Source of the DNA: Opitutales bacterium
Lineage (GTDB): Bacteria > Verrucomicrobiota > Verrucomicrobiia > Opitutales > PNEW01
Assembly: GCA_965219535.1 (NCBI GenBank)
Contig: CBDCNV010000001.1
Span: 960,001 to 992,000, forward strand
Length of the DNA stretch: 32,000 nucleotides
Reading direction: 5' to 3'
Numbering within the stretch: position 1 is the stretch's first letter; every line of letters begins with the position of its first letter. Below are positions 1,071 through 25,557 of the stretch, piece after piece. A model generated the notes under the pieces. The model saw only the letters and a program-made list of their open reading frames with translations, did no database searches and was not told where the DNA came from. The position numbers and the translations under genes are program-made.

Positions 1071-2066
1071 ATGAAGAAGACGTTATATCCGATTTTAATG
1101 GTAGGAATAATTTTGGTCATAGGGCTGGGTATTCTCTATCTTCCCCGGGTAATAACGGAAACGAAAAAAGAGACCGTTGAATATAAAAAAACTGACTTAA
1201 GTATCGCAGGATTTCCTCTAACGGTCGTCGACACAATCGGGCGTGATATACTGATAAAAGAAAGACCGAATCAGATCATCTCATTAGCTCCAAGTTTGAC
1301 CCAGACAGTTTTTGCACTCGGTGCTGAAGATCGTCTTGTTGGGAGAACCCGATTCTGTCTCTGGCCACCGGAAGCTGTGGCGATAAAAAGTATTGGAGGC
1401 CCGGCAGTTCCCGAGATCGAGTCGATGCTGGCGTTAAAACCGGACCTGATTCTCGCTACGACATTGACTCCGATCGAGGTTGTGCGACAAATCGAAGCGC
1501 TTGGGGTGCCAATCGTTATTTTTAAACAAGAGGGAGTTGAAGGAACCTTTAGTGATATGCAAGTGATTGGCCGTCTTACTGGAACGGCCGCGCAAGCAGA
1601 CGCGGCAATCCAAAAATTAGAAAAACGCAGGCGTGATCTATCGGAAAAAGTTGACGCGATTGGTCTGCGACCGCGGACCTTATTGCTCTACGGAGTTGAC
1701 GGTTTGTACAGCGCTAAAGTCGGCACATTTCCCAGCGATATGATCGAGTTGGCGGGAGGAGATAATGTCGTCAAGACTACAGCGTCCGATTGGCCTCAGT
1801 TATCGATGGAAAGCATTATTGAGTGGAATCCCGAAATCATTTTAGTTACTTTGCGTATAAGTGGAGAAGAGAATAAACTTGTTGATAATGTTATAGCGGG
1901 TTGGAAAGAAGATACGCGATGGACGACAGTTTCAGCCGTTATAAATCAAAGAATATACATTTTGGATGATACACTTATGTCTGTTCCCGGACCGTTAATG
2001 ATTGAAACGGCAGAGACTATAGCGAAGGTAATTCATCCCGATTTATTTCCACAACATCACCAATGA
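1071..2066 (+). CDS. Periplasmic substrate-binding protein of an iron-siderophore/cobalamin (BtuF/FhuD-type, class III) ABC importer
   Basis: It has an N-terminal hydrophobic anchor or signal (ILMVGIILVIGLGILYL) and a PBP pattern (IISLAPSLTQTVFALGAEDRLVG, LKPDLIL, NPEIILV). Its stop overlaps the ATPase start (ATGA overlap at 2063-2066). Cobalamin specificity is inferred only from the neighbouring riboswitch-controlled receptor. Confidence 0.75.
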   Translation: MKKTLYPILMVGIILVIGLGILYLPRVITETKKETVEYKKTDLSIAGFPLTVVDTIGRDILIKERPNQIISLAPSLTQTVFALGAEDRLVGRTRFCLWPPEAVAIKSIGGPAVPEIESMLALKPDLILATTLTPIEVVRQIEALGVPIVIFKQEGVEGTFSDMQVIGRLTGTAAQADAAIQKLEKRRRDLSEKVDAIGLRPRTLLLYGVDGLYSAKVGTFPSDMIELAGGDNVVKTTASDWPQLSMESIIEWNPEIILVTLRISGEENKLVDNVIAGWKEDTRWTTVSAVINQRIYILDDTLMSVPGPLMIETAETIAKVIHPDLFPQHHQ

Positions 2067-2872
2067 GCAAATCTCTATTGTATAAAGGGAACGGTTTGGT
2101 GGCAGGATACGGCGCTGATCCTGTACTCCATGATTTGAACATTGAGCTTCATGCAGGGGAAATTCTGGGTGTTCTCGGTCCTAATGGATCGGGGAAAAGT
2201 ACACTCATCCGCACATTAACAGGGGCATTGCCTCTTAGCAGTGGAGAAATTTATTTGGATGATCGAAAGGTATCCGATTTCAGCAGACAGGAGCAAGCGC
2301 AACGCGTTGCCGTGGTACCCCAGGCCAGTCCCGTTCTTTTCTCATTTTCGGTTCGCGAAACCGTGGAGATGGGTCGCTATCCGCATGCTGGGTCGTTGAG
2401 TGCCATGCGTGCGAAAGACAATGATGCCGTCACCACAGCCATGCGAGAGGTCGATATCTATCATCTCCAGGACCGTGCAATAGATCAGCTAAGTGGAGGT
2501 GAATGGCAGCGGGTGATGTTGGCGCGTGCTCTCGCCCAACGTTCAAAAGTGCTTCTCCTCGATGAGCCCACCGCTCACCTCGATTTGTCCCACCAGTTAC
2601 AGGTTTTTAAGATAGTGGAAAAGTTGTGCCATGATGATGGAACGGGCGTTCTCTGTGTCTTGCAGGATTTAAACCTGGCGGCTGAATTTTGTGGACGTCT
2701 CATCCTCATGACAGAAGGGCGTATTCTTTTTGAGGGTAAACCTGAAGAGGTAATAACAATAGAAAATTTACGAAAGGTTTATGGAGTTGAGGTTGAGATC
2801 GAGCAAAACCCCTATAGTAATCGACCGATGGTGATTTTTCGCAGCCGCAATGAGAGAGGGGTTACGCAATGA
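2063..2872 (+). CDS. ABC transporter ATP-binding protein (BtuD/FecE/HmuV-type)
   Basis: It carries Walker A GPNGSGKST, ABC signature LSGGEWQR and Walker B LLLDEPTAHLD. It is translationally coupled on both sides by 4-nt ATGA overlaps. Confidence 0.9.
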   Translation: MSKSLLYKGNGLVAGYGADPVLHDLNIELHAGEILGVLGPNGSGKSTLIRTLTGALPLSSGEIYLDDRKVSDFSRQEQAQRVAVVPQASPVLFSFSVRETVEMGRYPHAGSLSAMRAKDNDAVTTAMREVDIYHLQDRAIDQLSGGEWQRVMLARALAQRSKVLLLDEPTAHLDLSHQLQVFKIVEKLCHDDGTGVLCVLQDLNLAAEFCGRLILMTEGRILFEGKPEEVITIENLRKVYGVEVEIEQNPYSNRPMVIFRSRNERGVTQ

Positions 2873-3918
2873 AAGAGGGAAAAACATCTCTAGGAGGTGG
2901 AATCGCATTCTTTACTTTATTTAGCCTCTTACTTCTGTTTTCGATTTGGTTTTCTCTCAGTCTCGGTCAACTGGGTTTCACGCAACCCTCTGAATTGATT
3001 CAAATTTTAAAGGCTCATATGGGGAAGGGACAATTGGAAGGTCCGATGAAAGATCTATCGATTATACTCTGGAAAATACGTCTGCCTCGTATTGCTCTTG
3101 CACTGCTCGTCGGCGCAAATCTCGCTGTCGCTGGGGCCTTAATGCAGGCATTATTTTATAATCCACTGGCTGAACCCTATATCGTCGGTGTCTCAGCAGG
3201 TGCCGCACTCGGCGCGGTAGTCGCGATGATACTTGGATTAGAGGCCGCTCTTTTTGGATTAAATGGGGTCGCGATATTTGCCTTTATCGGAGCAACAGGT
3301 ACTACATTTATTGTTTATCGCGTTGCACAACGCGCGGGTAAGGTATCGATCAGCACCCTGTTGTTAACCGGCATAGCTGTAGGGGGATTAATGCAGGCAC
3401 TTACTACTTTGCTGATTTTACAAGCTGAGCCCTACCATATCCGGAACGTTCTAGCATGGCTCATGGGCAGCCTGGCCTACCGCGATTGGGATTATGTGAT
3501 CGTCCTGCTGCCCTATACACTAGTTGGATTGACTGTAGCCTGTTATCATTACCGCACATTAAACGCACTGGCAACCGGTGAAGAGTCAGCCCATTACCTG
3601 GGAGTAAATGTAGAACGGGCTAAACTCATTCTTCTGTTGGTCGCCTCCTTACTTGCCGCTTCAGCGGTGGCGGTCAGTGGGATAATAGCTTTTGTCGGAT
3701 TAATTGTCCCCCACCTTGTGCGTATACTGCTTGGAGCGAATCATCGTATTCTTATACCTGCTTCTATTCTTGTCGGATCGTTTTTAGTTATGTGGGCAGA
3801 TATTATGGCGCGAACAATAGCTCCAGGTCAGGAGATCCCGATTGGTGTCGTAACAGGTGTTTTAGGTTGCCTCTTTTTCCTGTATTTATTGCGACACTAT
3901 AAAGGCCGTGCTTTATAA
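2869..3918 (+). CDS. FecCD/BtuC-family ABC transporter permease
   Basis: It is a polytopic membrane protein with typical FecCD motifs (IRLPRIALALLVGANLAVAGALMQALFYNPLAEPYIVGVSAGA; IPIGVVTGVLGCLFFLYLL). It is the third gene of the coupled operon. Confidence 0.85.
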   Translation: MKEGKTSLGGGIAFFTLFSLLLLFSIWFSLSLGQLGFTQPSELIQILKAHMGKGQLEGPMKDLSIILWKIRLPRIALALLVGANLAVAGALMQALFYNPLAEPYIVGVSAGAALGAVVAMILGLEAALFGLNGVAIFAFIGATGTTFIVYRVAQRAGKVSISTLLLTGIAVGGLMQALTTLLILQAEPYHIRNVLAWLMGSLAYRDWDYVIVLLPYTLVGLTVACYHYRTLNALATGEESAHYLGVNVERAKLILLLVASLLAASAVAVSGIIAFVGLIVPHLVRILLGANHRILIPASILVGSFLVMWADIMARTIAPGQEIPIGVVTGVLGCLFFLYLLRHYKGRAL

Positions 3919-3990: not shown

Positions 3991-5814
3991 TTAAAAATTA
4001 TATTTTACACCGGTAAATAGACTTACGTCCGTGGCGGGAAACCCTGCTATGGGTTCGTAATGATCATTAAGGAGATTAACTCCTCGCACCCAGAATTCGA
4101 AATCATTCCAGCTAAGTGTAGCCGACGCTCTAACTGCCAGGTAGTCCTCATGATCACCCTGGATGAAAGTGTTGGGGTTGAGATCTTCCCGGTCAAGAAT
4201 CCAGGTTACGCCAAGATTCAAGTATAGAAAGTCTGTCGGTTGAGCAGTGGCAATTGCATCAAATTGATGTCGTGGGCGACGCAACAGTCGCTTATCGTTG
4301 GCTTCGTCATTGGCTTCCGTATAGGTGTAGTTTAATTGGGTCTGAAGTTGTTTACCTTCATACGCGGTGCTAAGCTCAAGGCCATAGGTTCTGGCAAGTG
4401 CTACATTTTCTACTCGTCCGGTAAATTCAATTTCAGGATCGGGTACAAACTGGATTAAGTCGTCGATCTCATTCCAAAAAACAATACCGGAAAGCTTCCA
4501 GGCTCCGCTATGTATTTTTACCCCGCCTTCCCAGGAGAGACCTCTTTCCGGATTCACATCGGGATTAGAAGATCCCGGGAAGTATAGATCCTGAAAAGTT
4601 GGGATGGAATAGGCTTCACTGACACTGGTATGCAGGTCCAATCCCGCTCTCGGTTGGAAACTGAGACCTGTTCTCCAGGACCAGGCATCCTTAAAGTCGC
4701 TGTAAGTGTCATAACGCACCGCGGTCAGCAAATTCCATTGTTTGTTTGGTTGATACTGACTATGGAGGAAAAAGCCGGCATTGTCCTGGTTTTCATCGAT
4801 AGGTGAAAATCCCTCTCCCAGCACTTCGGTCGTATAAGCTTCTGTTCCCGCAAGTAAAATTAAGGATTCGAATCCGGTGTATGTTGCACTATAGTCTAGC
4901 CGCCAGGTCTTCATTTCCTGTTTATTACCGAAGAATGGACTGATAAAGTCTTGTATCTGCTGGTCGTATGAAAGGTATATTTTATGTTTCCAACTTTCTG
5001 ATGGCTGCCATTCCAACCCTGGTGAAACGATTACACTTTTGGTATCAATATTATCTTCAGGGCTGGGAAAAGAAGTGATTCCCGGAACACCTGCATTTAC
5101 TTCATACCAACCGAATAACAAATCAGTATGGAGTTGGTCACTTTCATAATCAAGTTTCCCTCTGATACCCGTCTGTTTATAGCTGTTATTGGGTCGTTGG
5201 AAATCGGATTCTTCATGCGTAAATGATGCGGTGTAGGATAAATTATTTATCTTCCTCGCACTTGAACCCGAGATTCGGTAAGCGCCATAGGAACCGAATT
5301 CCCCTTCGATATTATGGGTTGGTTCTTCTGAGGGGTCTTTGCTTATAAGATTTACGACACCCCCAATGGCATCGGCGCCATGGGTTGCGGATGAAGGGGA
5401 CTTTACCACCTCTATCCTCTTAATATTATCCATATTTAAATTGGTGTAGTCATAACCTCCCGCTAAATTGGGGGATAATTTTCTTCCATCAATTTGAAGC
5501 TGGGTGTGGTTCGACTCCGTCCCGCGAATAAAGAGGGAAGTCGTTTGTCCTTTCGTCCCTGATTGTGCTATGTGCAGACCTGGAACTGACTGCATAACAT
5601 CGGCAAGCGTAATTATTTTTTTCTTATCTATCTCTGAAGATGTGATGACATCAACTGAAGCTGCAACTTCATCGCTTGGTTGAAGAATGCGTGTAGCGGT
5701 TATAACCATTTCTTCAATTTCGATCGGTTTATCCTGCGCGGATATATCTGACTCCAGTTTGAAAAGAACGGTGATGAATAATCCTACGATGAGTATTTTA
5801 ACTATCTTTATCAT
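3991..5814 (-). CDS. btuB: TonB-dependent outer-membrane receptor, cobalamin (BtuB)-type
   Basis: It has a signal peptide, a TonB-box-like EEMVITATR, plug-domain motifs (IEVVKSPSSATHGADAIGGVVNLISK) and a beta-barrel ending in the terminal aromatic ...GVKYNF. Its length of 607 aa is similar to BtuB. A cobalamin riboswitch sits directly upstream on the same strand. Confidence 0.8.
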   Translation of the reverse strand: MIKIVKILIVGLFITVLFKLESDISAQDKPIEIEEMVITATRILQPSDEVAASVDVITSSEIDKKKIITLADVMQSVPGLHIAQSGTKGQTTSLFIRGTESNHTQLQIDGRKLSPNLAGGYDYTNLNMDNIKRIEVVKSPSSATHGADAIGGVVNLISKDPSEEPTHNIEGEFGSYGAYRISGSSARKINNLSYTASFTHEESDFQRPNNSYKQTGIRGKLDYESDQLHTDLLFGWYEVNAGVPGITSFPSPEDNIDTKSVIVSPGLEWQPSESWKHKIYLSYDQQIQDFISPFFGNKQEMKTWRLDYSATYTGFESLILLAGTEAYTTEVLGEGFSPIDENQDNAGFFLHSQYQPNKQWNLLTAVRYDTYSDFKDAWSWRTGLSFQPRAGLDLHTSVSEAYSIPTFQDLYFPGSSNPDVNPERGLSWEGGVKIHSGAWKLSGIVFWNEIDDLIQFVPDPEIEFTGRVENVALARTYGLELSTAYEGKQLQTQLNYTYTEANDEANDKRLLRRPRHQFDAIATAQPTDFLYLNLGVTWILDREDLNPNTFIQGDHEDYLAVRASATLSWNDFEFWVRGVNLLNDHYEPIAGFPATDVSLFTGVKYNF

Positions 5815-5894: not shown

Positions 5895-5952
5895 TATAAA
5901 AATCATGAATTATAGCTCCTTCTCCTTCTTCGCGAGAGAGAACATGAGCATA

Positions 5953-6087
5953 AAGAAACACGTCTTCTGACTTCCGGCTTTAATCCTACTACCCGTCCTT
6001 CCCCATTTACAGGTGGACAATTGGGTTTCGTATCCGGTTACAGCGGCGCGGCCGCGTCCGATTTTCACGGACTTCCGTTTGTTTCTT
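5953..6087 (-). promoter_or_regulatory. Cobalamin (B12) riboswitch aptamer
   Basis: The minus strand has P1 AAGAAACA...UGUUUCUU. The core is AAACGGAAGUCCGUGAAAAUCGGACGCGGCCGCGCCGCUGUAA, followed by GUCCACCUGUAAAUGGGGAAGGAC. The B12-box-like element is AAGCCGGAAGUCAGAAGAC. The order and spacing of these elements match the cobalamin riboswitch consensus as I recall it. Confidence 0.8.
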
Positions 6088-6212
6088 CACTACATACTGT
6101 TGTAGCAATCAAAGAACTAAAGACAAGCAATCGAAAGAGAGATTATTTGTCAAGAGAAACAATAGGTATTTACAGAATCGGTGCGGTCATCGAGCGGGTA
6201 ATTAATTCTTTT

Positions 6213-6773
6213 TTAAAATACCTCCTTATACCTCGCCATGATAAAAAGCGCATCGCTCAAACGATTTAAATACTGGGTAAGGGTATTTCTAACTTCATGC
6301 CCCTTACTCTTTAAATCGAGAACAAGAATTTCTGCTTCTCTGCATAGTTTGCTGGAAAAATCCAAATGAGCAGCGGCAGCGTTGGAAGAGCCGTATAAAA
6401 TCCACCCCTTAATCTCGTAATTTTCTTTTTCTAAATCATTTGTTAATAGTTCCGCACTCTTTTCCACAAAGTCTAAATCATCATTTTTTAAACAATCGAA
6501 TTTTTCTTGATACTTAACTTTTTCATCATCAGCGGTCGCGATTTCTCCCATAAACTTGATTAAAGATTTTTGAATTTTAAAAAGGATTTCCGAAATATTC
6601 TGATCGGAACACTGCTGCTTATCCAATTGTTGGTGAACGAGCCCCAGAGAAGCGTGCAAGGTGTCTATTTTGCCATTGGCAATGACGCGACAATCATTTT
6701 TTGGAACGCGACCACCCATTAAGAGTGAAGTTTCTCCCTCATCGCCCGTTTTCGTTATTATATTAATGGTCAT
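6213..6773 (-). CDS. ATP:cob(I)alamin adenosyltransferase, PduO/MMAB-type
   Basis: The N-terminal signature is TKTGDEGETSLLMGGRV, followed by a helical-bundle body ending in LNRLSDALFIMAR. The length (186 aa) is typical of stand-alone PduO-type ATR. Confidence 0.85.
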   Translation of the reverse strand: MTINIITKTGDEGETSLLMGGRVPKNDCRVIANGKIDTLHASLGLVHQQLDKQQCSDQNISEILFKIQKSLIKFMGEIATADDEKVKYQEKFDCLKNDDLDFVEKSAELLTNDLEKENYEIKGWILYGSSNAAAAHLDFSSKLCREAEILVLDLKSKGHEVRNTLTQYLNRLSDALFIMARYKEVF

Positions 6774-9062: not shown

Positions 9063-9449
9063 ATGCTGGACGTAGTTAAAAAAACCATCCTGGCGGGAAT
9101 AGGTGCAACCGTCACGACTAAGGAAAAAGTAGAAGTTGTACTTAAAGAACTCGTTGACAAGGGTAGTATCACTGCCAAGGACGCGCGGGTGATTGGGAAA
9201 AAAATTGTCAAGGGCAGCAAGAAAGAATTTGATAAGAATCGGAAAAAGCTGGAAATTCAAATTCAGGATACGATCAGCAAAGCCAAAGAGAGAAAAAATA
9301 AAGTGGCAGAGCTGGAGAAACGCGTGCGCGTACTTGAAGCAAAATTAGGGATTAATAAGACTACCCGAAAGTCTACTAAAAAGGCCGCTCCTAAAAAGAA
9401 GAAAACTGCCAAAAAGAAAACTGCTACTAAAAAGAAAAGAGTGCGTTAG
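9063..9449 (+). CDS. Small phasin-like (COG3937-type) coiled-coil protein with a Lys/Ala/Thr-rich histone-H1-like C-terminal tail
   Basis: The N-terminus MLDVVKKTILAGIGATVTTKEKVEVVLKELVDKG resembles phasin-family / PHA synthesis regulator proteins. The C-terminus is TRKSTKKAAPKKKKTAKKKTATKKKRVR. Confidence 0.5.
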   Translation: MLDVVKKTILAGIGATVTTKEKVEVVLKELVDKGSITAKDARVIGKKIVKGSKKEFDKNRKKLEIQIQDTISKAKERKNKVAELEKRVRVLEAKLGINKTTRKSTKKAAPKKKKTAKKKTATKKKRVR

Positions 9450-9667: not shown

Positions 9668-11119
9668 TTGAAAAAATCCATGCTGCCGTCCGACCTTGAG
9701 GCTTTGCTGAAACGTGTAAAATTTTCTAATCTAGCTGAAGCACAGAAGCGATTGGGTAATTTAGCAGGTGAACCAACGGAAACGCTTGCCCTGGTCCACA
9801 TATCTCAAGCCCTGGGTGATTTACTTGCTGAGTCACCTGACCCCGACGCCACACTGATACATTTAGAGCGTTTCGCTCAAGCGCGCGGTTCGCATTGGGA
9901 ATTATACAATCATTTCTTAGAGCACCCAGCCGCGTTAGAATCGTTTATCGGGGTCGTCTCAACGAGCAACTATCTTGCTGACGTACTCGTTCGCAATCCG
10001 GAATATTTACCGATCATTTACGATAGTCCACTTTTGGAAAAGGTAAAAACCGATGAGCAATTCCAGAAAGAGTTAGTGGATATTAGTAAAGCATTCCATA
10101 CGGTTACATCGAGAATTGATTCCATTCGAAGATATCGGCGTCAGGAGATTCTTCGGATTGGGGCCGCTGATATCCTGGAGTATTACAATTTACAAGAAAT
10201 TACTGAGCAACTCTCCCGTCTTGCAGATGTTGTCGTAGCTAATTGTTTAGGTGAGGTATCCATTAAAGCTAACGATTCTGGATTTTTTGTTTTAGGATTA
10301 GGTAAGTTAGGGGGGAATGAACTGAATTACAGCTCAGACATTGATTTGATTTTCGTGACGGAAAATATTGATTGTCTCGATTCTTCAACACAAGTTGCGA
10401 GGGAATTGACTCAGTTTTTGGGTGAGTTTACAGCTGAAGGGTTTCTTTACCGTGTTGACTTACGCTTGCGGCCTTATGGTTCGGCTGGACCCCTTGTCGT
10501 TTCGACCGCGATGTTGGAAGATTACCTGGCCACTAAGGCGGATCCCGCTGAAAGGCAAGCGATGTTGAAAGCACGTCCCATTGCGGGTGACATTGAGGTG
10601 GCAAACGCGTTTCTGCAACGTATCAGACCGGTACTCTACGCAGATTATTTAAAAGCGCGCAGTCTGGTTAGGAAATTGAAAGAACGTATTGAGCGCCAAC
10701 TTAAAAGAAATAGGAACACCATAGGAAACGTAAAGCTCGCGCCCGGAGGTATTAGGGATATCGAGTTCATTGTTCAAGCTCTTCAATTGGAAGCAGGGCA
10801 TCATCAATCTAAGTTACAAACGGGTAATACCCTTGAAGCGATTTCCCGTTTAACTAAAGCGGAATATCTTAGGGAAGCTGATGCCGCAGTGCTAGTTGAG
10901 GTATATAAGTTTCTTAGAATTATTGAACATCGAATGCAGATGATGAACAACCGCCAAGTGCACCAATTGCCTGAAAATGAGGATGCATGTCTTACTTTAG
11001 CTCGAACTCTGGCTTATAAAGGACCTGACGAAGTTAAACAACTTCGAGAGGACTACAATGAGCAAGCAGGTAAAGTGAGAGAGATTTTCGACCGCATCCT
11101 TCCTGCAACTGAAGATTAA
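9668..11119 (+). CDS. glnE: Glutamine synthetase adenylyltransferase (GlnE) homologue, first nucleotidyltransferase module (by order, equivalent to the adenylyl-removing half)
   Basis: The GlnE NTase motif is GLGKLGGNELNYSSDIDLIFV, then YRVDLRLRPYGSAGPLV, AERQAMLKARPIAGD and KLAPGGIRDIEFIVQALQL. The called start is TTG at 9668, with an in-frame ATG at 9680 as an alternative. Confidence 0.8.
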   Translation: MKKSMLPSDLEALLKRVKFSNLAEAQKRLGNLAGEPTETLALVHISQALGDLLAESPDPDATLIHLERFAQARGSHWELYNHFLEHPAALESFIGVVSTSNYLADVLVRNPEYLPIIYDSPLLEKVKTDEQFQKELVDISKAFHTVTSRIDSIRRYRRQEILRIGAADILEYYNLQEITEQLSRLADVVVANCLGEVSIKANDSGFFVLGLGKLGGNELNYSSDIDLIFVTENIDCLDSSTQVARELTQFLGEFTAEGFLYRVDLRLRPYGSAGPLVVSTAMLEDYLATKADPAERQAMLKARPIAGDIEVANAFLQRIRPVLYADYLKARSLVRKLKERIERQLKRNRNTIGNVKLAPGGIRDIEFIVQALQLEAGHHQSKLQTGNTLEAISRLTKAEYLREADAAVLVEVYKFLRIIEHRMQMMNNRQVHQLPENEDACLTLARTLAYKGPDEVKQLREDYNEQAGKVREIFDRILPATED

Positions 11120-11123
11120 TACA

Positions 11124-13298
11124 ATGTCAATTGAGTCAGAATCGAATATTAGCGGCTTGTTTCGATCTCAACATGGGGACTCTTATAATCGATTTAAAGA
11201 TGAAGATCAGGTTAGACACGCTAATTTACTCGAACAGATCGTTAAACCTGGTGATTTAAAGTTAAACGCTCAGCGTAAGGACAACCTTCAATGGATAATT
11301 ACCGTATCTACTACAGATTCGGTGGGTGTTCTTTCGATAATTTCTGGTTTATTTGCCGCGCATCGAATCGATATTACAAGTGGAGATTTATTCACGATTC
11401 ATATTAAATCGGCAGCCGAGTCCAGGCGTTCTAACCGGTTTAAACACCTTCGAAACTCACTTCAGCATCATCGGCAACGAACCGTTTATCGAAAGATATT
11501 GGATGTATTCGAAGTCCGCACAGAACAGGGTGTGAATGAAGAATTTTGGAAAGCATTTGGTGATGAGCTGACTTCACTGATAGCATTGATTGCGGAGGGA
11601 AAATTAGAACAGGTACGCGAAGATATAATTTTTCGGGTAACCGCTGTTTTTCGAGAGAATTTGAATTTCGATGAACGCCTTCTGCCGATTTCAATTTCCA
11701 TGGATAATGAGAGTTCACCCAATTTTACCGGTTTAAGCATTCAAACTTTAGATACAACCGGGTTTATTTTTGAATTTGCTAATGCCTTAGCGATGCTAAA
11801 TGTAAATATTGAAAGAGTTGAAATACGTTCTGTTAACAGTGAGGTTCAGGATTATTTCTGGGTGAGTGATTCACACCGGCGAAAGATTGAAGAAAGCAAT
11901 CGACTAAATGAGCTCCGGCTTGCTGCTACCTTAATCAAACAGTTTACCCATTTGCTTCCACGCGCTCCCAATCCAGCACAGGCACTCAGTCAGTTTAGTG
12001 CACTGACACTCCAGATGCTATCTAATCCGGATTGGATTCAAGAGGTTCAGGCGCTTCAGTCCAGCGTTATCTTACGCACGATTGCAGAACTAATGGGTGT
12101 CAGTCAGTTTCTATGGGAAGATTTTCTGCGCATGCAACATGAAAATTTATTTCCCGTTATCAGTGATGTATCAGGTTTAGATCGTGATAAAACAAAAGAC
12201 GATCTCTTAAAAGAAATAGAAGAAAGCATAGCTATCATTGAGGAGGAAACTGAGCGGATCAATCAATTGAATAAATTTAAAGACCGTGAAATGTTTCACA
12301 TTGATCTTCGACACATTACCCAGCGGATAGATATTATGGCATTCTCGGATGCCTTGTCCGACCTTGCTGAAGTGATCGTCACTTATGCGAGTGAACACGC
12401 CCACTCAACGCTCGAAAAACAATTTGGACGTCCACTTAGGACTAATGGCAAGGTGTGTCCCTGGTCTATTTGTGCATTGGGTAAATTCGGTGGACGTGAA
12501 TTGGGTTTCGCTTCAGATATTGAACTTATCTTTATCTATGAAGGAGGGGGACAGACAGATGGAGATCAGAGCGTTGAAAACTCTTATTATTTTGAAGAAT
12601 GGGTCTGTATATTTCTACGCACGATAACAGCCCGCCAGGAAGGTATATTTCAGATTGATCTGCGCTTAAGACCCTACGGTAAAAATGGAAGCCTGGCTTC
12701 TACATTTGAAGGATTCCAAAAGTATTTTTCAGAGAGTGGCGATGCTTTACAATTTGAACGTATGGCTCTGGTCAAATTGCGTCCCGTTGCGGGTGATCAA
12801 CAGCTTGCCAATCAAATTCTTCAAGCGCGTGACCAATTTGTTTACACGGGTAAAGCTATAGATTACAATGACATATTGCACTTCCGTTACCGACAGGCTT
12901 CAGAGTTGGTTCCGCGTAATGCGATTAGCGCAAAACTGAGTAATGGGGGCCTGGTCGATGTAGAATATTTTATACAGGCACTACAAATAAAGACGGGGAT
13001 GAAAGTCCCGAAAATACGTGTAGCTAATATAGAGGAAGCAATTAACCAGTTGGAAGATTCAGGAAGTATTAGTGCGTTTCAAGCGGAAGAATTGCGAAAG
13101 ACATACGCTTTTCTCCGCCGATTGATCGACGCATTACGATCCGTCCGCGGTAACGCCAAAGATTTGACCCTCCCCGCAATAGATTCTCTTGAGTATGAGT
13201 ATCTGGCTCGGCGGCTCGGATACGATTCAGGCTTTTACTTGCAAAAGGAAATTTCACTGCGCATGGATTTTGCGGGCAAATTGTGGGACACCGTCTGA
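11124..13298 (+). CDS. glnE: GlnE homologue, second nucleotidyltransferase module (adenylyltransferase-like) preceded by two ACT-like domains
   Basis: The second motif set is ALGKFGGRELGFASDIELIFIY, FQIDLRLRPYGKNGSLA, FERMALVKLRPVAGD and GGLVDVEYFIQALQI. The N-terminal ~260 aa contains two ACT-like beta-alpha-beta-beta-alpha-beta signatures: ITVSTTDSVGVLSIISGLFAAHRIDITSGDLFT and LSIQTLDTTGFIFEFANALAMLNVNIERVEIRS. It starts 4 nt after the preceding stop. Confidence 0.75.
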   Translation: MSIESESNISGLFRSQHGDSYNRFKDEDQVRHANLLEQIVKPGDLKLNAQRKDNLQWIITVSTTDSVGVLSIISGLFAAHRIDITSGDLFTIHIKSAAESRRSNRFKHLRNSLQHHRQRTVYRKILDVFEVRTEQGVNEEFWKAFGDELTSLIALIAEGKLEQVREDIIFRVTAVFRENLNFDERLLPISISMDNESSPNFTGLSIQTLDTTGFIFEFANALAMLNVNIERVEIRSVNSEVQDYFWVSDSHRRKIEESNRLNELRLAATLIKQFTHLLPRAPNPAQALSQFSALTLQMLSNPDWIQEVQALQSSVILRTIAELMGVSQFLWEDFLRMQHENLFPVISDVSGLDRDKTKDDLLKEIEESIAIIEEETERINQLNKFKDREMFHIDLRHITQRIDIMAFSDALSDLAEVIVTYASEHAHSTLEKQFGRPLRTNGKVCPWSICALGKFGGRELGFASDIELIFIYEGGGQTDGDQSVENSYYFEEWVCIFLRTITARQEGIFQIDLRLRPYGKNGSLASTFEGFQKYFSESGDALQFERMALVKLRPVAGDQQLANQILQARDQFVYTGKAIDYNDILHFRYRQASELVPRNAISAKLSNGGLVDVEYFIQALQIKTGMKVPKIRVANIEEAINQLEDSGSISAFQAEELRKTYAFLRRLIDALRSVRGNAKDLTLPAIDSLEYEYLARRLGYDSGFYLQKEISLRMDFAGKLWDTV

Positions 13299-19259: not shown

Positions 19260-19682
19260 TTAAAAGTCCACTGGTGGCTTTAGCGAACACCAAGGTTCCT
19301 CCTTACTCACATCAATCAGTGCCGGACCATCAAATTTAGCGGGTGAGAGTATAGCTAGAAATACCAGGTCCTCTTTTCCAGGATTGTATGTACCATGAAC
19401 CCTGTTGACAGGTATATGTGCCAATTCACCCGGGCCTAAAATTTGGTGCTCCCGCTCAACCCATTGTTCCGCACGCCCCTCGAGGATGTAAATGATCTCC
19501 TCCATCGCGGGATGCCGATGAAACTGATGCGCTTTGCCCGGGGGCATGTTAACACGCACGAGCAGAAGACCTTCTGCATCAGTCAACCCGGGCCGGCACA
19601 GCCAATGATGCGGGCCCCATGGCAATTGTTCTACTTGAATATCGTGATTGGAGACAAAGCTTAGTAGCTGATCATTGCTCAT
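19260..19682 (-). CDS. Cupin-domain protein (cupin_2 type), function unknown
   Basis: Cupin motif 1 is GKAHQFHRHPAMEEIIYILEG and motif 2 is GELAHIPVNRVHGTYN. Confidence 0.7.
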   Translation of the reverse strand: MSNDQLLSFVSNHDIQVEQLPWGPHHWLCRPGLTDAEGLLLVRVNMPPGKAHQFHRHPAMEEIIYILEGRAEQWVEREHQILGPGELAHIPVNRVHGTYNPGKEDLVFLAILSPAKFDGPALIDVSKEEPWCSLKPPVDF

Positions 19683-19773
19683 AGAGGCAGTATATCCCGC
19701 TCGGCCTCGTGATAGATCGATTCCGTCTCTTAAAGACTGGCGATGGTCTATGACCTGAAAATAAAGCTATTAT

Positions 19774-19971
19774 TTAGTCACCCGACGAAAAATCTCTATC
19801 CTTAACGGTTTTACGGCGATCATTGCGTGCGTTTTCGATGGCTTGGTCGCATAGACCACGAACAATACCTGACAGCGCTGATGCTGCACTTGCCGATGTG
19901 TTCATTGAGGCCTTTTCTTTAATGTATTTTTTCAGCTTCGATACAACTACCAATAGTTCAGAGTTACTCAT
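19774..19971 (-). CDS. Bacterial histone-fold protein (singlet histone with truncated alpha-3, Bd0055/HBb-like)
   Basis: The 65-aa ORF has a GGAG RBS 7 nt upstream of its ATG. By eye it aligns with archaeal HMfB. Helix 1 is ELLVVVSKLKKYIKEK, loop 1 is ASMNTS and the long helix 2 is ASAASALSGIVRGLCDQAIENARN. The L2 signature DRRKTVKDRDF corresponds to HMfB [11 protein letters not shown]. The protein ends just after this signature. Confidence 0.7.
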   Translation of the reverse strand: MSNSELLVVVSKLKKYIKEKASMNTSASAASALSGIVRGLCDQAIENARNDRRKTVKDRDFSSGD

Positions 19972-20050
19972 ATTTTGTCTCCAATTACTTTATTTATATT
20001 TTGGGTTAACAAGAACGGTTACTTTAAAACAATAGATTTTATTGCTTTCA

Positions 20051-20074
20051 CCTTTAATTCCTAGGGATTAAAGG
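20051..20074. repeat. Near-perfect 24-bp palindrome about 80-100 bp upstream of the histone-fold gene
   Basis: The sequence is CCTTTAAT-TCCTAGGG-ATTAAAGG. It has 8-bp perfectly complementary outer arms and a CCTAGG core. Confidence 0.6.
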
Positions 20075-20724
20075 CCTTCCAGTCAACCTTTGAGCATAAA
20101 ATTATTTTTCCGGTATTCTCTCTATAAATTATTTTTTTGAATTGCGAATAGCCTTGGTGAAAGAGGTAATGTTAATCTTTTTTGAAAATTATTTCATATT
20201 ATATATAGCAGTGCATGAAACCGACTGACTTAGTTCTCATCACTCAAACAACTGATGATATTTTTTTAATCAGTTGATGAATTGTATTAAAAATCGAGGA
20301 TCATCACTTTGTCTGTGATCGGGTAGTATACCCAGAATATTCGTTAATTTAGCCGTTTAAATCCTTGTTTCCCCTTTTTTAATGATAATTTATTATTAAT
20401 ATAATGAATTAAACAGTGGAATTTATCGTTCTTCCAAGGCTAGTTTAATAACGTAATTTGTCACCTGAGAACTGCCGCTGTCACAGCCGTGCGGGATGAT
20501 TCTTCCCCGCGTATGCAAAGGTTTTAAAAGCAAGTTATAATCTTTATCTGAGCGAATGTCTTCGTCCCCAGTTGATTTTTTCGAAATGTAGAACCCGCTA
20601 TATTTAAAAAAATATATTAATTGTTTACAGAATAAAGGGGTATTAGGTTAAAAAAGTCGCAGATGATGGGGTAGATATAGACGAATGTTTATTGCATGAA
20701 AAAATCTGCAAGCGATGGATTAAA

Positions 20725-21825: not shown

Positions 21826-24411
21826 CTATGACTGATTTTTTGATCGAATTACTTTTATTCTGCTTTTCATCACCTTCATTTCTTGCTTGTTGCCCAGAGC
21901 CTTGGTGAGGTTGACCATCAACTCCAAAGTGGGAAGTAGGTTAATGTTTTCATTCCCAAAAAAATTTTCTTTAATAAGCAAAGACCGATTGAGAAAGTCT
22001 ATGGCTTTATTATAATTTTCTTTCATATAATACATCTCAGCCATTTTGTATAATGATTCTCCCGTTTCGGGATGGTTGGGACCTAGAGCTTTTTCAATGC
22101 TCGCCAATACCTGTTTATTAAACTGTTCAGCTTTAGGATATTTTTCTTCAATCGTATAGAGATCTGCAAGGGCACGCTGGATTAATGCCACTTGTGGATG
22201 ATCTGGCCCGAAAGCAATAACTGCAATTTCCATGGCTTGTTTGTAAAGTCGTTCCGCTTTTATAGCGTTATTCTGAAGTTTATAAAGATCAGCCAGATTG
22301 ATCTGTGATAAAGCAACCTGCACGTGATCGACCCCCAGTGCCTTTTCTAAAATTGAAAGTGAACGTAGATATAGAGGTTCCGCTTCAGCGTACTTACCTT
22401 CAGCAGTTAAATGTTCCGCTAAATCGTTAAGTGACTTAGCAACAAAAGGATAATTGGCACTCTGAGACTTTTCTCTGAGCGTATGGACCCGATTATAAGC
22501 AGTTTCTGCTTCAGCATATCTACCTTGAAGTGAATAGATAACGGCCAAGTGATTAACAATTGAACCCACTTCGAGGATATCAGAATTATTCACTTTCTCA
22601 GCAATTTCGAGGGCGTAGTTAAATAGGTTTTCAGCCTCTTTATAATTACCGGTAATCTGGTAGAGGTCAGCTAACTCATATAAGGTTTTCCCAAGCTCAG
22701 GATGGTCAGGCCTTAATGTTTGTTTTTCTATTGCGAGCGTTCGTTGGAACAATAACTCAGCTTGTTGGAAAATATCCTGGCTTTTATAAAGTATAGCGAG
22801 GCGTTTCAGAATCTGGCCAAATTGAGGATGGTTGGGCCCATAAATGGCTTCCATAATTTTCAGCACCTGATTATAGAGCGGTTCAGCTTTGGAATAATTG
22901 CCATGTGTGGAATAAAACTCGGCAAGTTTAAACAGTGAATCCGCTATTTTTGGATTCTCATTTTGATAGATTTTTTTACTTACTTCCAAAGCCTGTAGAT
23001 AAAGATTTTCCGCAATTTCAATATTCCCCCGCGCATCATTTAACGCAGCTAAATGACTGAGAGATTTCACGACCAAGGGGTGATTTGGCCCATAGGCTTT
23101 TTCCCTGATTTCCAATGAACGTTTAAATAATAGTTCTGCTTCTTCATACTTTTCCTGCATCAGTAAAACAATAGCCAAATTGTCCAGAGAGAGGGAAACT
23201 TGCGGATGAAAAAGCCCAAGTGATTTTTCTAGTATTTCCAGTGAGCGTTGAAAAATAAGTTCAGAAGAAGTGAACTTGGCTTGAGATAAATATAGGTCGC
23301 CTAATTTATTCAGATAAATTACGCAATCCGGATGTTCCGCGCCATAGGTATTTTCAATTATTGACAACCCCCGCTTTAACTGAGGTTCAGCTTTATCGTA
23401 TTTGCCTTCAGTAGAATAAAGGGCAGCTATATTTTTTAAAAAAGTAGCAACCGTTGGATGATCCGGTCCAAGTTTTGTTTCAAGAATTGTGAGCGCACGC
23501 AAATATAACTTTTCCGCTTCTTCATACTTACCCTGTAATTTATAAAGATCGGCTAAATTATTTAAAGAAGCCCCTACCTCGGGATGGCTGGAACCCAATG
23601 TTTTCTCTCTAATATCCAACGCACGCTGATGAAGATGCTCGGCTTCACGATACTCACCCTGGACTTTATAAAGTTCACCTAAATTGTTGAGAGATTGGGC
23701 GACTTCAGGATGCACGGCGCCCATTGTTTTCTCCCTAATCGCTAAGGCCTTCATGAATAAAGGTTCCGCTTCAATATATTTTCTCTGATAAAAATATATT
23801 CCCGCAAGATTGTTTAGCGATGTGGCTAACTTCGGGTGTTCTGGACCCATCGTCACTTCCTCTATCTTTAAGGAGCGTAAAAAAAGAGGTACAGCTGCGG
23901 TAAAATTACCTTGTGCTTTATAAAGTTCAGCCAGGTTATTAAGTGATTGGCCGATATCAGGGTGATTGGGTTCATGAGTGTTTTCTCTAATTTCCAAAGC
24001 ACGCTTGAAGAGAGGTTCGGCCTTAGAATAATTTTTTTGAATTCTGTAAAGTTCTCCTAAATTATTCATAGATTGCGCGACAAAGGGATGATCCGGGCCC
24101 AGTGTTATTTCACGCATACGAAGCGCTTGCTTGTAGAAATTCTCTGATTCCTTATTTTTCCCTATAGAAAAATAAAAGACCCCAAGGTTATTGAGGGCAG
24201 TAGCCACTTTTGGGTGCTCGGGCCCAAATGTTTCCTTTGCTACTTTGAGCACTTCCTTGGTGACTTTTATCGCCTCCAAAGATTGTCCATCCTGGTATAG
24301 AGCCACCGCTTGTGAATTTAGCTGTTCCCACAATGCCTCCTGGGCAATGGAGGGTGATGAAAACAATAATAGCAGTCCAATAAATATTACCTTAATAGCT
24401 AGCGTCTTCAT
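21826..24411 (-). CDS. Exported tetratricopeptide-repeat protein (TPR_12 / kinesin-light-chain-like), 19 tandem 42-residue units
   Basis: The signal peptide is MKTLAIKVIFIGLLLLFSSPSIAQEA. It is followed by 19 consecutive units of the form NNLAxLYxxQGKYxEAEPLYxRALxIxEKxLGPxHPxVAxSL. No other domain is recognisable. Confidence 0.9.
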   Translation of the reverse strand: MKTLAIKVIFIGLLLLFSSPSIAQEALWEQLNSQAVALYQDGQSLEAIKVTKEVLKVAKETFGPEHPKVATALNNLGVFYFSIGKNKESENFYKQALRMREITLGPDHPFVAQSMNNLGELYRIQKNYSKAEPLFKRALEIRENTHEPNHPDIGQSLNNLAELYKAQGNFTAAVPLFLRSLKIEEVTMGPEHPKLATSLNNLAGIYFYQRKYIEAEPLFMKALAIREKTMGAVHPEVAQSLNNLGELYKVQGEYREAEHLHQRALDIREKTLGSSHPEVGASLNNLADLYKLQGKYEEAEKLYLRALTILETKLGPDHPTVATFLKNIAALYSTEGKYDKAEPQLKRGLSIIENTYGAEHPDCVIYLNKLGDLYLSQAKFTSSELIFQRSLEILEKSLGLFHPQVSLSLDNLAIVLLMQEKYEEAELLFKRSLEIREKAYGPNHPLVVKSLSHLAALNDARGNIEIAENLYLQALEVSKKIYQNENPKIADSLFKLAEFYSTHGNYSKAEPLYNQVLKIMEAIYGPNHPQFGQILKRLAILYKSQDIFQQAELLFQRTLAIEKQTLRPDHPELGKTLYELADLYQITGNYKEAENLFNYALEIAEKVNNSDILEVGSIVNHLAVIYSLQGRYAEAETAYNRVHTLREKSQSANYPFVAKSLNDLAEHLTAEGKYAEAEPLYLRSLSILEKALGVDHVQVALSQINLADLYKLQNNAIKAERLYKQAMEIAVIAFGPDHPQVALIQRALADLYTIEEKYPKAEQFNKQVLASIEKALGPNHPETGESLYKMAEMYYMKENYNKAIDFLNRSLLIKENFFGNENINLLPTLELMVNLTKALGNKQEMKVMKSRIKVIRSKNQS

Positions 24412-25472: not shown

Positions 25473-25557
25473 TGGTGCCCGGGAAAGGACTCGAACCTTC
25501 ACGCCTTGCGGCACTAGAACCTAAATCTAGCGTGTCTGCCAATTCCACCACCCGGGC
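25473..25557 (-). tRNA. tRNA-Leu (anticodon UAG), class II with long variable arm, CCA encoded
   Basis: The minus strand reads GCCCGGG-UG-GUG-GAAUUGGCAGA-CAC-G-CUAGA-UUUAGGU-UCUAG-UGCCGCAAGGCGUG-GAAGG-UUCGAGU-CCUUU-CCCGGGC-ACCA. The full cloverleaf was folded by hand. The anticodon loop is UU-UAG-GU. Confidence 0.9.

What the first reader, a model, noticed from the sequence alone, without database searches (positions are those of the whole stretch)
19774..19971. 65-aa histone-fold gene: a bacterial histone (HBb/Bd0055-like)
The ORF has a good GGAG RBS.

Its translation is MSNSELLVVVSKLKKYIKEKASMNTSASAASALSGIVRGLCDQAIENARNDRRKTVKDRDFSSGD. This threads onto the archaeal histone fold of HMfB ([59 protein letters not shown]). 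The pattern is a short helix 1, loop L1, a long central helix, and then the diagnostic R-K-T-(V/I)-K-x-x-D L2 motif.

The protein stops right after L2, so alpha-3 is truncated. That is the hallmark of the singlet bacterial histones characterised in Bdellovibrio bacteriovorus (Bd0055/HBb) and Leptospira. From memory, the N-terminal half (LVV.SK.KK.IKEK..MNTSA) is also very close to Bd0055.

Such genes are usually annotated as hypothetical. They appear to be abundant, possibly essential nucleoid proteins with a DNA-binding mode that is still debated. A new lineage carrying one is worth following up.
Basis: partly seen in the sequence, partly recalled or inferred. Interest (0 to 1): 0.75.

Follow-up and report, generated by a model that had tools for sequence, protein, structure and literature searches.

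The report
HBb-type bacterial histone gene in Opitutales
This small gene really does encode a bacterial histone of the kind first characterised in Bdellovibrio, here in a Verrucomicrobiota (Opitutales) genome, but the family is known and a near-identical orthologue is already listed in a published catalogue.

Summary
The 65-codon ORF at 19774..19971 is real, but it lies on the minus strand. Its GGAG Shine-Dalgarno sits 7 nt before the ATG, and the gene is under purifying selection.

It is a singlet, alpha3-truncated histone-fold protein of the "bacterial dimer" (HBb/Bd0055) class:
- It is 52% identical to HBb without gaps (PDB phmmer E=3e-12; family profile E=1.4e-21).
- The five best Foldseek hits are all HBb structures.
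- Nine of ten HBb DNA-contact residues, the RD clamp and the RKTV loop are identical.
- The residues that make Leptospira HLp or archaeal histones tetramerise are absent.

The window is 96% identical to an Opitutales MAG. It is an ordinary chromosomal region, with no conserved operon partner across phyla and no viral relatives.

The "new lineage" point does not hold. Hocher et al. 2023 (Table S1) already list the 94%-identical orthologue and its paralogue from Verrucomicrobia bacterium Opi.OSU.00C. The family has more than 1,100 clusters at 50% identity across many phyla.

The most likely function is inferred by homology: an abundant, sequence-nonspecific nucleoid protein that acts as a dimer and bends or coats DNA. 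The dimer state, abundance and HU/IHF co-occurrence could not be tested here.

Verdict: interpretation correct; new member of a known kind; modest interest.

The parts
19774..19971 (-). CDS of a 65-aa (7.06 kDa, pI 9.6) singlet histone-fold protein of the HBb/'bacterial dimer' alpha3-truncated class. It has alpha1 at about residues 3-21, L1 at 22-26 (MNTSA), alpha2 at 27-50, L2 with the RKTV motif and RD clamp (R53...D60), a one-turn alpha3 remnant and a short acidic tail (SSGD).
19979..19982 (-). Shine-Dalgarno GGAG, 7 nt upstream of the ATG. It lies within AATTGGAGA, which is invariant in four Opitutales orthologues.
19972..20143 (-). The only part of the 753-bp upstream spacer that is conserved among Opitutales orthologues. 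Inferred to be the 5' leader plus promoter region.
20080..20096 (-). Invariant block TGCTCAAAGGTTGACTG containing a -35-like TTGACT (20086..20081). An invariant TA follows 17 nt downstream (TAGGAA at 20063..20058), which is only a weak -10. Candidate promoter, inferred and not shown.
   Evidence: not picked up by the consensus scan
19683..19773 (-). 91-nt spacer between the histone stop and the downstream cupin gene. It is about as conserved as the coding sequence and has no intrinsic terminator, so co-transcription with the cupin gene is possible.
19260..19682 (-). Downstream cupin-domain gene (140 aa). Its adjacency to the histone, followed by Nramp and cyclase genes, is conserved in three Opitutales genomes but not in other phyla. 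It is context, not an established functional partner.

Best explanation
The gene encodes a chromosomal, stand-alone bacterial histone of the HBb (Bd0055) 'bacterial dimer' class, in an uncultured Opitutales bacterium (Verrucomicrobiota).

Shown here: it is a real gene under purifying selection; it is homologous to HBb over its whole fold; and it keeps HBb's DNA-contact and fold-stabilising residues while lacking both known kinds of tetramerisation residues.

Inferred by homology with HBb:
- Two 7-kDa chains form a handshake homodimer through antiparallel alpha2 helices (L33, V37 and L40, plus L13 and F61).
- The protein acts as an abundant nucleoid-associated protein that compacts DNA by bending it dimer by dimer, like HU. 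It does not wrap DNA into nucleosome-like particles.

A second, roughly 70%-identical paralogue in the same lineage may give homodimers and heterodimers.
For: Homology:
- phmmer against the PDB puts HBb 8cmp/8fvx first (E=3e-12, gapless over residues 4-61, 30/58 identical).
- The family profile scores HBb 1.4e-21, HLp 4e-12, HTkC 2e-8 and HMfB 0.004.
- The AF2 model (pLDDT 77) has two helices, 3-21 and 27-50, and no long alpha3. Foldseek ranks 1-5 are all HBb (probability 0.99-1.00, TM 0.51-0.56), followed by HTkC and eukaryotic histone-fold chains.

Residue map onto the HBb crystal contacts described in PMC11317129:
- Nine of ten DNA contacts are identical (S9, K10, K12, T23, S24, A25, K52, T53, R57). 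The exception is T8 to V.
- The RD clamp R51/D58 and the auxiliary D49 are identical.
- The dimer-interface residues are identical or conservatively replaced.

Oligomer class:
- The HLp tetramerisation residues R49 and N53 align to N47 and D51 (alignment).
- The archaeal tetramerisation histidine position (HBb A48; the A48H/S45F/I61L mutations confer wrapping) is N50.
- Natural tandem doublets of HBb-like folds exist, which supports the dimer as the working unit.

Real gene: 18 synonymous versus 4 non-synonymous, and 26 versus 11, changed codons against orthologues, with an invariant SD.

Stand-alone chromosomal gene:
- No neighbour family recurs in more than 7 of 80 loci.
- The window holds housekeeping and metabolic genes and no mobile-element genes.
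- There are no viral relatives.

Function of the reference protein: HBb is abundant, apparently essential, binds genome-wide without specificity and bends DNA (PMC10627809).
Against: - No expression, abundance, oligomer or DNA-binding data exist for this protein. Everything functional is transferred from a 52%-identical relative.
- The dimer could not be modelled. The tandem-fusion model had pLDDT 49. The monomer Foldseek E-values are weak (0.014-0.043), although the ranking is clean.
- Pfam and NCBIfam histone models score below their curated cut-offs.
- HBb's own DNA-binding mode is disputed: bending (PMC11317129) versus an end-on sheath on straight DNA (PMC10627809).
- T8, a DNA-contact residue in the second HBb interface, is Val here.
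- Whether HU/IHF coexist in this genome is unknown.
- Conserved adjacency to the cupin gene without a terminator leaves room for a more local role.
Confidence: 0.8

Rival explanations
1. Same protein family, but a different architecture on DNA. At physiological density the dimers bind end-on and polymerise into a protein sheath around straight DNA (the nucleohistone filament proposed for Bd0055), instead of bending DNA as isolated dimers.
For: Hocher et al. 2023 crystallised Bd0055 with 35-bp DNA as an end-on sheath on straight DNA. The L1-L2 contact residues used in that mode are all conserved here.
Against: Hu et al. 2024 report compaction by bending in solution assays, and MD simulations that support bending. 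They argue that the FRET data give only limited support for straight filaments. Nothing in the sequence discriminates between the two modes. The N-terminus, which Hocher proposed promotes dimer-dimer contacts, differs (MSNSELL versus MAEVL).
Confidence: 0.2
2. It is a face-to-face (FtF) type alpha3 histone, like Leptospira HLp or archaeal HTkC. It would form a stable tetramer and wrap about 60 bp of DNA.
For: HLp (9qt0) and HTkC (9f2c) are the next-best PDB relatives (E=1e-5 and 0.014 with the single sequence; 4e-12 and 2e-8 with the profile). They share the truncated alpha3 and the shorter alpha2.
Against: The match to HBb is about ten orders of magnitude better at profile level. The residues that build the HLp tetramer interface and are conserved in bacterial FtF histones, R49 and N53, are N47 and D51 here, as they are S45 and D49 in HBb.
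Confidence: 0.05
3. It is a histone-fold protein recruited to a local or conditional role, not a global nucleoid organiser. It could be a regulator or partner linked to the downstream cupin and Nramp metal-transport genes, or one of two sub-functionalised paralogues expressed only in some conditions.
For: The histone-cupin-Nramp-cyclase order is conserved in three Opitutales genomes. The histone-cupin spacer is as conserved as the coding sequence and has no terminator. The lineage carries a second paralogue elsewhere in the genome. Schwab et al. caution that not all prokaryotic histones need be global organisers.
Against: The adjacency is lineage-local. Across 80 loci from many phyla no neighbour family recurs in more than 7 loci. 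The paralogue sits in an unrelated neighbourhood. The nonspecific backbone-contact residues are conserved, and there is no extra domain to confer specificity.
Confidence: 0.1
4. It is a chance ORF or mis-called gene with no protein product.
For: The ORF is short, and several decoy ORFs of similar length overlap the region. Pfam does not reach its gathering score.
Against: 123 homologues at E<=1e-3 in the word-indexed search and 1,134 clusters at 50% identity in the exhaustive search. The codon substitution pattern shows purifying selection. The SD is invariant. The protein is 52% identical to a crystallised protein.
Confidence: 0.01

Closest known systems
HBb / Bd0055 of Bdellovibrio bacteriovorus (PDB 8CMP, 8FVX, 8FW7, 9EZZ, 9F0E); the 'bacterial dimer' category of alpha3-truncated histones (Schwab et al. 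2024)
   Same: Singlet of about 65 aa with a gapless alignment over residues 4-61 and 52% identity. It has the same short alpha2 and one-turn alpha3, the S-K motif at the start of alpha1, the MNTSA L1 loop, the RKTV L2 loop, and the RD clamp plus auxiliary Asp. It has no tetramerisation residues, is a stand-alone gene, and is basic (pI 9.6).
   Different: The host is a Verrucomicrobiota (Opitutales) bacterium, not a predatory Bdellovibrionota. T8 is replaced by Val, and much of the solvent face of alpha2 differs (SASAASALSGIVRG versus AETIDVLSKAIEQ). The C-terminal tail is acidic (SSGD) instead of hydrophobic (VIDHL from my memory of the sequence; I61 is confirmed). The lineage has two paralogues. 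There is no experimental data.
HLp of Leptospira perolatii (PDB 9QT0-2) and HTkC of Thermococcus kodakarensis (9F2C); face-to-face (FtF) alpha3 histones
   Same: Truncated alpha3, alpha2 one turn shorter than in HMfB, RD clamp and similar size. Significant sequence similarity.
   Different: The FtF tetramer-interface residues R49 and N53 are absent here (N47 and D51). HLp is a stable tetramer that wraps about 60 bp, which is not expected for this protein.
Archaeal nucleosomal histones HMfA/HMfB (PDB 1A7W, 5T5K)
   Same: Histone fold, the L2 RKT motif and RD clamp, and DNA contact through paired L1-L2 loops. The family profile reaches HMfB at E=0.004 over alpha2-L2.
   Different: HMfB has a three-turn alpha3 and His49, which build the four-helix-bundle tetramer and hypernucleosomes. 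Here alpha3 is truncated, the His position is N50, and alpha2 is about one turn shorter. The single-sequence match is not significant (E=0.68), and Pfam PF00808 is below its gathering score.
HU/IHF family (functional analogue, unrelated fold)
   Same: If it behaves like HBb, it is a small, basic, abundant dimer that binds genome-wide without sequence specificity and compacts DNA by bending.
   Different: The fold and evolutionary origin are entirely different. No HU/IHF gene lies in this window. Whether one exists elsewhere in the genome was not testable.

Membership tests
Bacterial dimer (HBb-type) alpha3-truncated histones | Significant sequence similarity or clustering with Bd0055/HBb. Schwab et al. 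defined this category by sequence clustering. | tested here: met
   HBb is the best PDB hit (E=3e-12 single sequence, 1.4e-21 profile), about 10 orders of magnitude better than HLp at profile level. 30/58 residues are identical without gaps.
Bacterial dimer (HBb-type) alpha3-truncated histones | Histone fold: alpha1-L1-alpha2-L2-alpha3 topology | tested here: met
   The AF2 model (pLDDT 77) has helices 3-21 and 27-50. Foldseek top 5 are all HBb, followed by HTkC, MHF and H2B-type chains. The E-values are weak (0.014) because the model is a small isolated monomer.
Bacterial dimer (HBb-type) alpha3-truncated histones | alpha3 truncated to about one turn (3-4 residues), and alpha2 4-5 residues shorter than in nucleosomal histones | tested here: met
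   Only 5 residues follow the clamp residue D60, and DSSP finds no third helix. The gapless alignment to HBb gives the same alpha2 length. Against the archaeal histone profile, 50 residues span 54 model positions.
Bacterial dimer (HBb-type) alpha3-truncated histones | RKTxxxxD L2 motif with RD clamp; conserved S-K motif and lysines on alpha1 | tested here: met
   R53-K54-T55-V56...D60 and D51; S11-K12, K14, K15 and K18. These positions are invariant or nearly invariant across 30 family members (definitions).
Bacterial dimer (HBb-type) alpha3-truncated histones | Singlet with no additional domain | tested here: met
   The ORF is 65 aa and is bounded by an upstream in-frame stop. No other Pfam domain is found.
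Bacterial dimer (HBb-type) alpha3-truncated histones | Dimer as the largest oligomer, with no tetramerisation | tested here: inconclusive
   At sequence level the FtF R49/N53 and archaeal His49 equivalents are absent (N47, D51, N50). The dimer itself could not be modelled (tandem model pLDDT 49), and the oligomeric state needs SEC-MALS.
Bacterial dimer (HBb-type) alpha3-truncated histones | Nonspecific DNA binding and bending; high abundance; essentiality | not testable with these tools
   This needs biochemistry and omics. Only the conservation of 9 of 10 HBb DNA-contact residues is shown.
Face-to-face (FtF) histones (HLp/HTkC) | Conserved tetramer-interface residues R49, N53 and R55 (HLp numbering) | tested here: not met
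   R49 aligns to N47 and N53 to D51. Only R55, which is also the RD-clamp Arg, is present as R53.
Archaeal nucleosomal histones (Pfam PF00808 CBFD_NFYB_HMF; NCBIfam NF043032) | Score above the curated family threshold; three-turn alpha3; tetramerisation His49 | tested here: not met
   Pfam gives 15 bits against a gathering score of 21.4, and NCBIfam gives 24 bits against 50. alpha3 is truncated. The His position is N50.
DUF1931 pseudodimeric (doublet) histones | Two histone folds in one chain | tested here: not met
   There is a single fold in 65 aa.

The most novel reading that the evidence does not exclude
Opitutales carry two diverged HBb-type paralogues. Type A, the window gene, has L1 = MNTSA. 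Type B has L1 = MSTGS and is about 70% identical. They probably arose by duplication within the lineage and may assemble into A2, B2 and AB dimers with different DNA-contact loops. This would be an unlinked two-gene counterpart of the natural tandem HBb-like doublets seen in other bacteria, and would be analogous to HU alpha/beta or HMfA/HMfB. A combinatorial histone system of this kind, possibly acting as the main nucleoid organiser of this verrucomicrobial lineage, has not been described.
Probability: 0.3. Interest if true: 0.45.

Novelty: new member of a known kind. Interest (0 to 1): 0.3.

Why it matters
Bacterial histones were established experimentally only in 2023-2025, and only two have been characterised: the HBb dimer and the HLp tetramer. 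The DNA-binding mode of the HBb class is still disputed. An additional HBb-class member that is 52% identical to HBb, comes from a different phylum (the PVC group) and has a paralogue could serve as an independent test case for the bending versus sheath question and for heterodimer formation.

That said, the family's existence, its fold, its broad and patchy distribution, and even this lineage's orthologue are already in the literature. The finding confirms known biology and does not extend it.

Tried and rejected
1. Dimer modelling. A head-to-tail tandem of the window protein, mimicking natural doublets, was folded without an MSA. It gave pLDDT 49 and pTM 0.32, which is uninformative.
3. A conserved operon partner across phyla was not found. 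The best neighbour family occurs in 7 of 80 loci, and all recurrences are clade-local.
4. Phage or mobile origin was not supported. There is no PHROG match, no relative in IMG/VR, and no mobile-element genes in the window.
5. No terminator was found after the histone gene. The spacer fold is no better than shuffles (z=-0.13).
6. The consensus scan found no more sigma-70 promoter-like sites than chance (7 versus 5.3 expected). The candidate promoter rests only on conservation.
7. The 753-bp AT-rich upstream spacer holds no Rfam match worth noting (best E=0.51), no ORF of 40 aa or more lying entirely within it, and no direct repeats.
8. Long-range SD:anti-SD pairing with the cupin 5' CDS is predicted at P=1.0 in the window and in the near-identical L003. 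It falls to 0.1 and 0.06 in L004 and L023, so it is not robustly conserved and I rejected it as an established feature.
9. HU/IHF presence in the same genome could not be tested.
10. Hocher's supplementary files held no further table mentioning the Opi.OSU.00C genome, so they gave no information on HU in it.

Full report
OBSERVATION. The ORF is at 19774..19971 as stated, but on the minus strand. The plus-strand reading is full of stops. ATG 19971..19969 is the first start codon after the upstream in-frame stop, so the N-terminus is fixed. GGAG occupies 19982..19979, 7 nt upstream of the ATG. In this window only 7 of 28 ORFs have any SD-like 4-mer at the right distance. The AATTGGAGA motif is invariant in four orthologous loci whose coding sequences differ by up to 22%.

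A 65-codon ORF is not remarkable in itself. What makes this a gene is conservation. There are 123 homologues at 60-94% identity in the word-indexed search. The exhaustive profile search finds 1,134 clusters at 50% identity with E<=1e-3 and 520 with E<=1e-10. Synonymous changes outnumber non-synonymous ones: 18 versus 4 changed codons against L004, and 26 versus 11 against L023.

WHAT IT IS. Against all PDB sequences, the best matches are 8cmp and 8fvx (E=3e-12, gapless over residues 4-61). Foldseek's descriptions identify these as the histone HBb (Bd0055) of Bdellovibrio bacteriovorus. Identity is 30/58.

Lower-ranked hits are Leptospira HLp 9qt0 (1e-5), viral HmvA, archaeal HTkC and, not significantly, HMfB (0.68). 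With a profile of 30 family members (A1) the ranking sharpens: HBb 1.4e-21, HLp 4e-12, HTkC 2e-8, HmvA 1e-5 and HMfB 0.004. Curated library models do not reach their thresholds. Pfam CBFD_NFYB_HMF gives E=0.031 and 15 bits against 21.4, and NCBIfam archaea_histone gives 24 bits against 50. This probably explains why NCBI records call these proteins 'hypothetical', while JGI calls them 'histone H3/H4'.

An AlphaFold2 model built with the family alignment (mean pLDDT 77) has helices at 3-21 and 27-50, an extended C-terminal segment, and no long third helix. Its five best Foldseek matches in the PDB are all HBb entries (probability 0.99-1.00, TM 0.51-0.56). They are followed by HTkC and then eukaryotic histone-fold chains. 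The E-values (0.014-0.043) are weak, as expected for a small monomer taken from an obligate dimer.

RESIDUE-LEVEL TEST. The window numbering is the HBb numbering plus 2. Hu et al. 2024 (PMC11317129) list two sets of DNA contacts: K12, T23, S24, A25, K52, T53 and R57 (interface 1), and T8, S9 and K10 (interface 2). They also list the RD clamp R51-D58 with auxiliary D49, and the dimer interface V11, L31, I35, L38 and I59.
- Nine of the ten DNA contacts are identical here. T8 is Val10.
- All three clamp residues are identical.
- The interface residues are identical or conservatively replaced (L13, L33, V37, L40, F61).
- The S-K motif and alpha1 lysines that Hocher et al. and Schwab et al. describe as typical of bacterial singlets are present and invariant in A1.

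DIMER TYPE VERSUS TETRAMER TYPES. HLp tetramers depend on R49, S52 and N53, and on R55. R49, N53 and R55 are conserved in bacterial face-to-face histones (PMC12701072). In the alignment these positions are N47, N50, D51 and R53 here. Only the clamp Arg is kept, exactly as in HBb.

Archaeal-type four-helix-bundle tetramerisation needs His49 and a full alpha3. Hocher et al. showed that A48H, S45F and I61L give Bd0055 the ability to wrap DNA. The corresponding residues here are N50, N47 and S63. So the protein belongs with the 'bacterial dimer' category of the alpha3-truncated histone family of Schwab et al. 2024.

The family also contains natural single-chain tandem doublets of HBb-like folds, and ZZ-domain fusions. 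This is consistent with the dimer being the functional unit. I could not model the dimer directly, because a tandem fusion folded without an alignment gave pLDDT 49.

SOURCE AND CONTEXT. The window is 96.4% identical over 7.2 kb to chromosome OY829953.1 of an Opitutales MAG (L003). It is collinear, at 75-85% identity, with two further Opitutales/Verrucomicrobia genomes (L004 and L023). The lineage is Verrucomicrobiota, Opitutia, Opitutales. The exact protein also occurs on ENA and Logan contigs with the same gene order.

The window is ordinary chromosome. It encodes OGG and MPG glycosylases, a B12 uptake cluster with a cobalamin riboswitch, GlnE, CysK-like, Dtd and BacA proteins and a tRNA-Leu, among others. 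It has no HU/IHF gene and no mobile-element genes.

On the minus strand the local order is TPR protein, Zn-dehydrogenase, a 753-bp AT-rich spacer, the histone, a 91-nt spacer, cupin and Nramp. The histone-cupin-Nramp-cyclase part is kept in all three Opitutales genomes. The region upstream of about 20143 is variable, with a 3.7-kb insertion in L023 and loss of the TPR and dehydrogenase genes in L004.

The conserved 140-170 bp upstream holds an invariant TGCTCAAAGGTTGACTG block with a -35-like TTGACT, and an invariant TA 17 nt further on. This is a plausible promoter, but it is only inferred. No terminator separates the histone from the cupin gene, and that spacer is conserved, so co-transcription is possible.

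Across 80 loci from about 15 phyla, no neighbouring gene family recurs in more than 7 loci. There are no relatives on viral contigs or in PHROGs. The gene therefore behaves like a stand-alone housekeeping-type gene.

DISTRIBUTION AND PRIOR KNOWLEDGE. The best 80 come mainly from Planctomycetota (18), Bdellovibrionota (17), Pseudomonadota (9) and Verrucomicrobiota (6), plus many candidate phyla.

The main texts of Hocher et al. 2023 and Schwab et al. 2024 do not name Verrucomicrobiota. [quoted passage not shown]
- Its 68-aa paralogue, PNEW01000170.1-2.

So the 'new lineage' element of the finding does not hold. A literature search found no paper that discusses these verrucomicrobial histones.

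PARALOGUES. Opitutales MAG OY829953.1 and Opi.OSU.00C each carry a second copy about 70% identical to the first (L005 and L018). Its L1 loop is MSTGS instead of MNTSA, and it sits in an unrelated neighbourhood. In a neighbour-joining tree, the window protein and both paralogue types form one exclusive clade, but with only 27/49 bootstrap support. This is compatible with a duplication within the lineage but does not prove it.

MECHANISM. The steps shown here are homology, the fold, conserved contact residues, the absence of tetramerisation residues and purifying selection.

The steps inferred are these. The protein forms a handshake homodimer. [quoted passage not shown] It binds without sequence specificity, is abundant, and compacts DNA by bending, as Hu et al. 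report for HBb.

The main mechanistic rival is Hocher's end-on sheath on straight DNA. The sequence cannot discriminate between these two modes.

VERDICT. The gene is a new, uncharacterised member of a known kind, and its near-identical orthologue is already catalogued. Interest is modest at 0.3. The residual value lies in an independent, non-predatory PVC-group representative of the HBb class, and in the two-paralogue arrangement.

Noticed in passing
L005:4992-5192 (+) and L018:261-440 (+); genomes OY829953.1 and PNEW01 (Opi.OSU.00C): The closest genomes to the window each carry a second HBb-type histone paralogue (66-68 aa, about 70% identical, L1 loop MSTGS instead of MNTSA) in an unrelated neighbourhood. 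An NJ tree groups both types in one exclusive Opitutales clade, with weak bootstrap support (27/49). Heterodimer formation is possible but untested.
   Followed up: partly
proteins P0135, P0136, P0138, P0140, P0142, P0153 (tandem doublets) and P0137 (ZZ domain plus two folds): The top-scoring relatives include natural single-chain tandem doublets of HBb-like histone folds joined by linkers of about 8-12 residues, and a ZZ-finger protein with two such folds. These would be pseudodimers of the 'bacterial dimer' class. I did not check whether they are real genes or fused gene calls.
   Followed up: partly
window 19638-19658 (inside the cupin 5' CDS) versus 19974-19994 (histone SD region): A 21-nt inverted repeat, with 12 nt exact (ATTGGAGACAAA / TTTGTCTCCAAT), would pair the histone's Shine-Dalgarno with codons 9-12 (F-V-S-N) of the downstream cupin gene on a bicistronic RNA. 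The TTTGTCTCC element is kept in all four orthologues, and a C-to-U change on the SD side keeps a G·U pair. The predicted pairing probability is 1.0 in the window and L003, but only 0.1 in L004 and 0.06 in L023. It may be a coincidence of SD conservation and protein constraint.
   Followed up: partly
window 20054-20077 (-): An 8-bp perfect inverted repeat, CCTTTAAT-N8-ATTAAAGG, overlaps the spacer and weak -10 of the candidate histone promoter. It is only partly kept in L004 and L023, which have a CCCTAGGG-type palindrome there. It could be an operator or nothing.
   Followed up: no
window 20144-20724: A 34% GC, roughly 580-bp non-coding stretch upstream of the conserved histone leader. It is a variable spot among Opitutales genomes, with a 3.7-kb insertion in L023 and loss of the TPR and dehydrogenase genes in L004. 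It has no ORF of 40 aa or more and no Rfam hit.
   Followed up: partly
window 9063-9449 (+): A 128-aa protein with a weak phasin-related N-terminus (NCBIfam NF047773 at 4.6e-6 and TIGR01837 at 1.9e-4, both below cut-off). Its C-terminal tail is extremely lysine-rich (KSTKKAAPKKKKTAKKKTATKKKRVR) and reminiscent of PhaF or histone-H1-like DNA-binding tails. It is a second candidate nucleoid-binding protein in the window.
   Followed up: partly
window 9668-11119 (+) and 11124-13298 (+): Glutamine synthetase adenylyltransferase (GlnE) appears split into two adjacent genes of 483 and 724 aa. Each has a GlnE nucleotidyltransferase domain and a GlnD_UR_UTase domain, and the second also has an ACT domain.
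   Followed up: no
window 5940-6109 (-), with 3991-5814 (-), 1071-3918 (+) and 6213-6773 (-): A cobalamin riboswitch (Rfam RF00174, 68 bits) lies ahead of a TonB-dependent receptor, next to a periplasmic-binding/ABC/FecCD transporter trio and a cobalamin adenosyltransferase. This is an ordinary B12 uptake cluster.
   Followed up: no
window 21826-24411 (-): An 861-aa secreted-looking protein made almost entirely of TPR_12/TPR_10 repeats (NPHP3-like, 16 repeats). It is present in L003 but absent from the syntenic position in L004.
   Followed up: no
window 25473-25557 (-): A tRNA-Leu (anticodon TAG) gene lies just upstream of the amidohydrolase gene.
   Followed up: no
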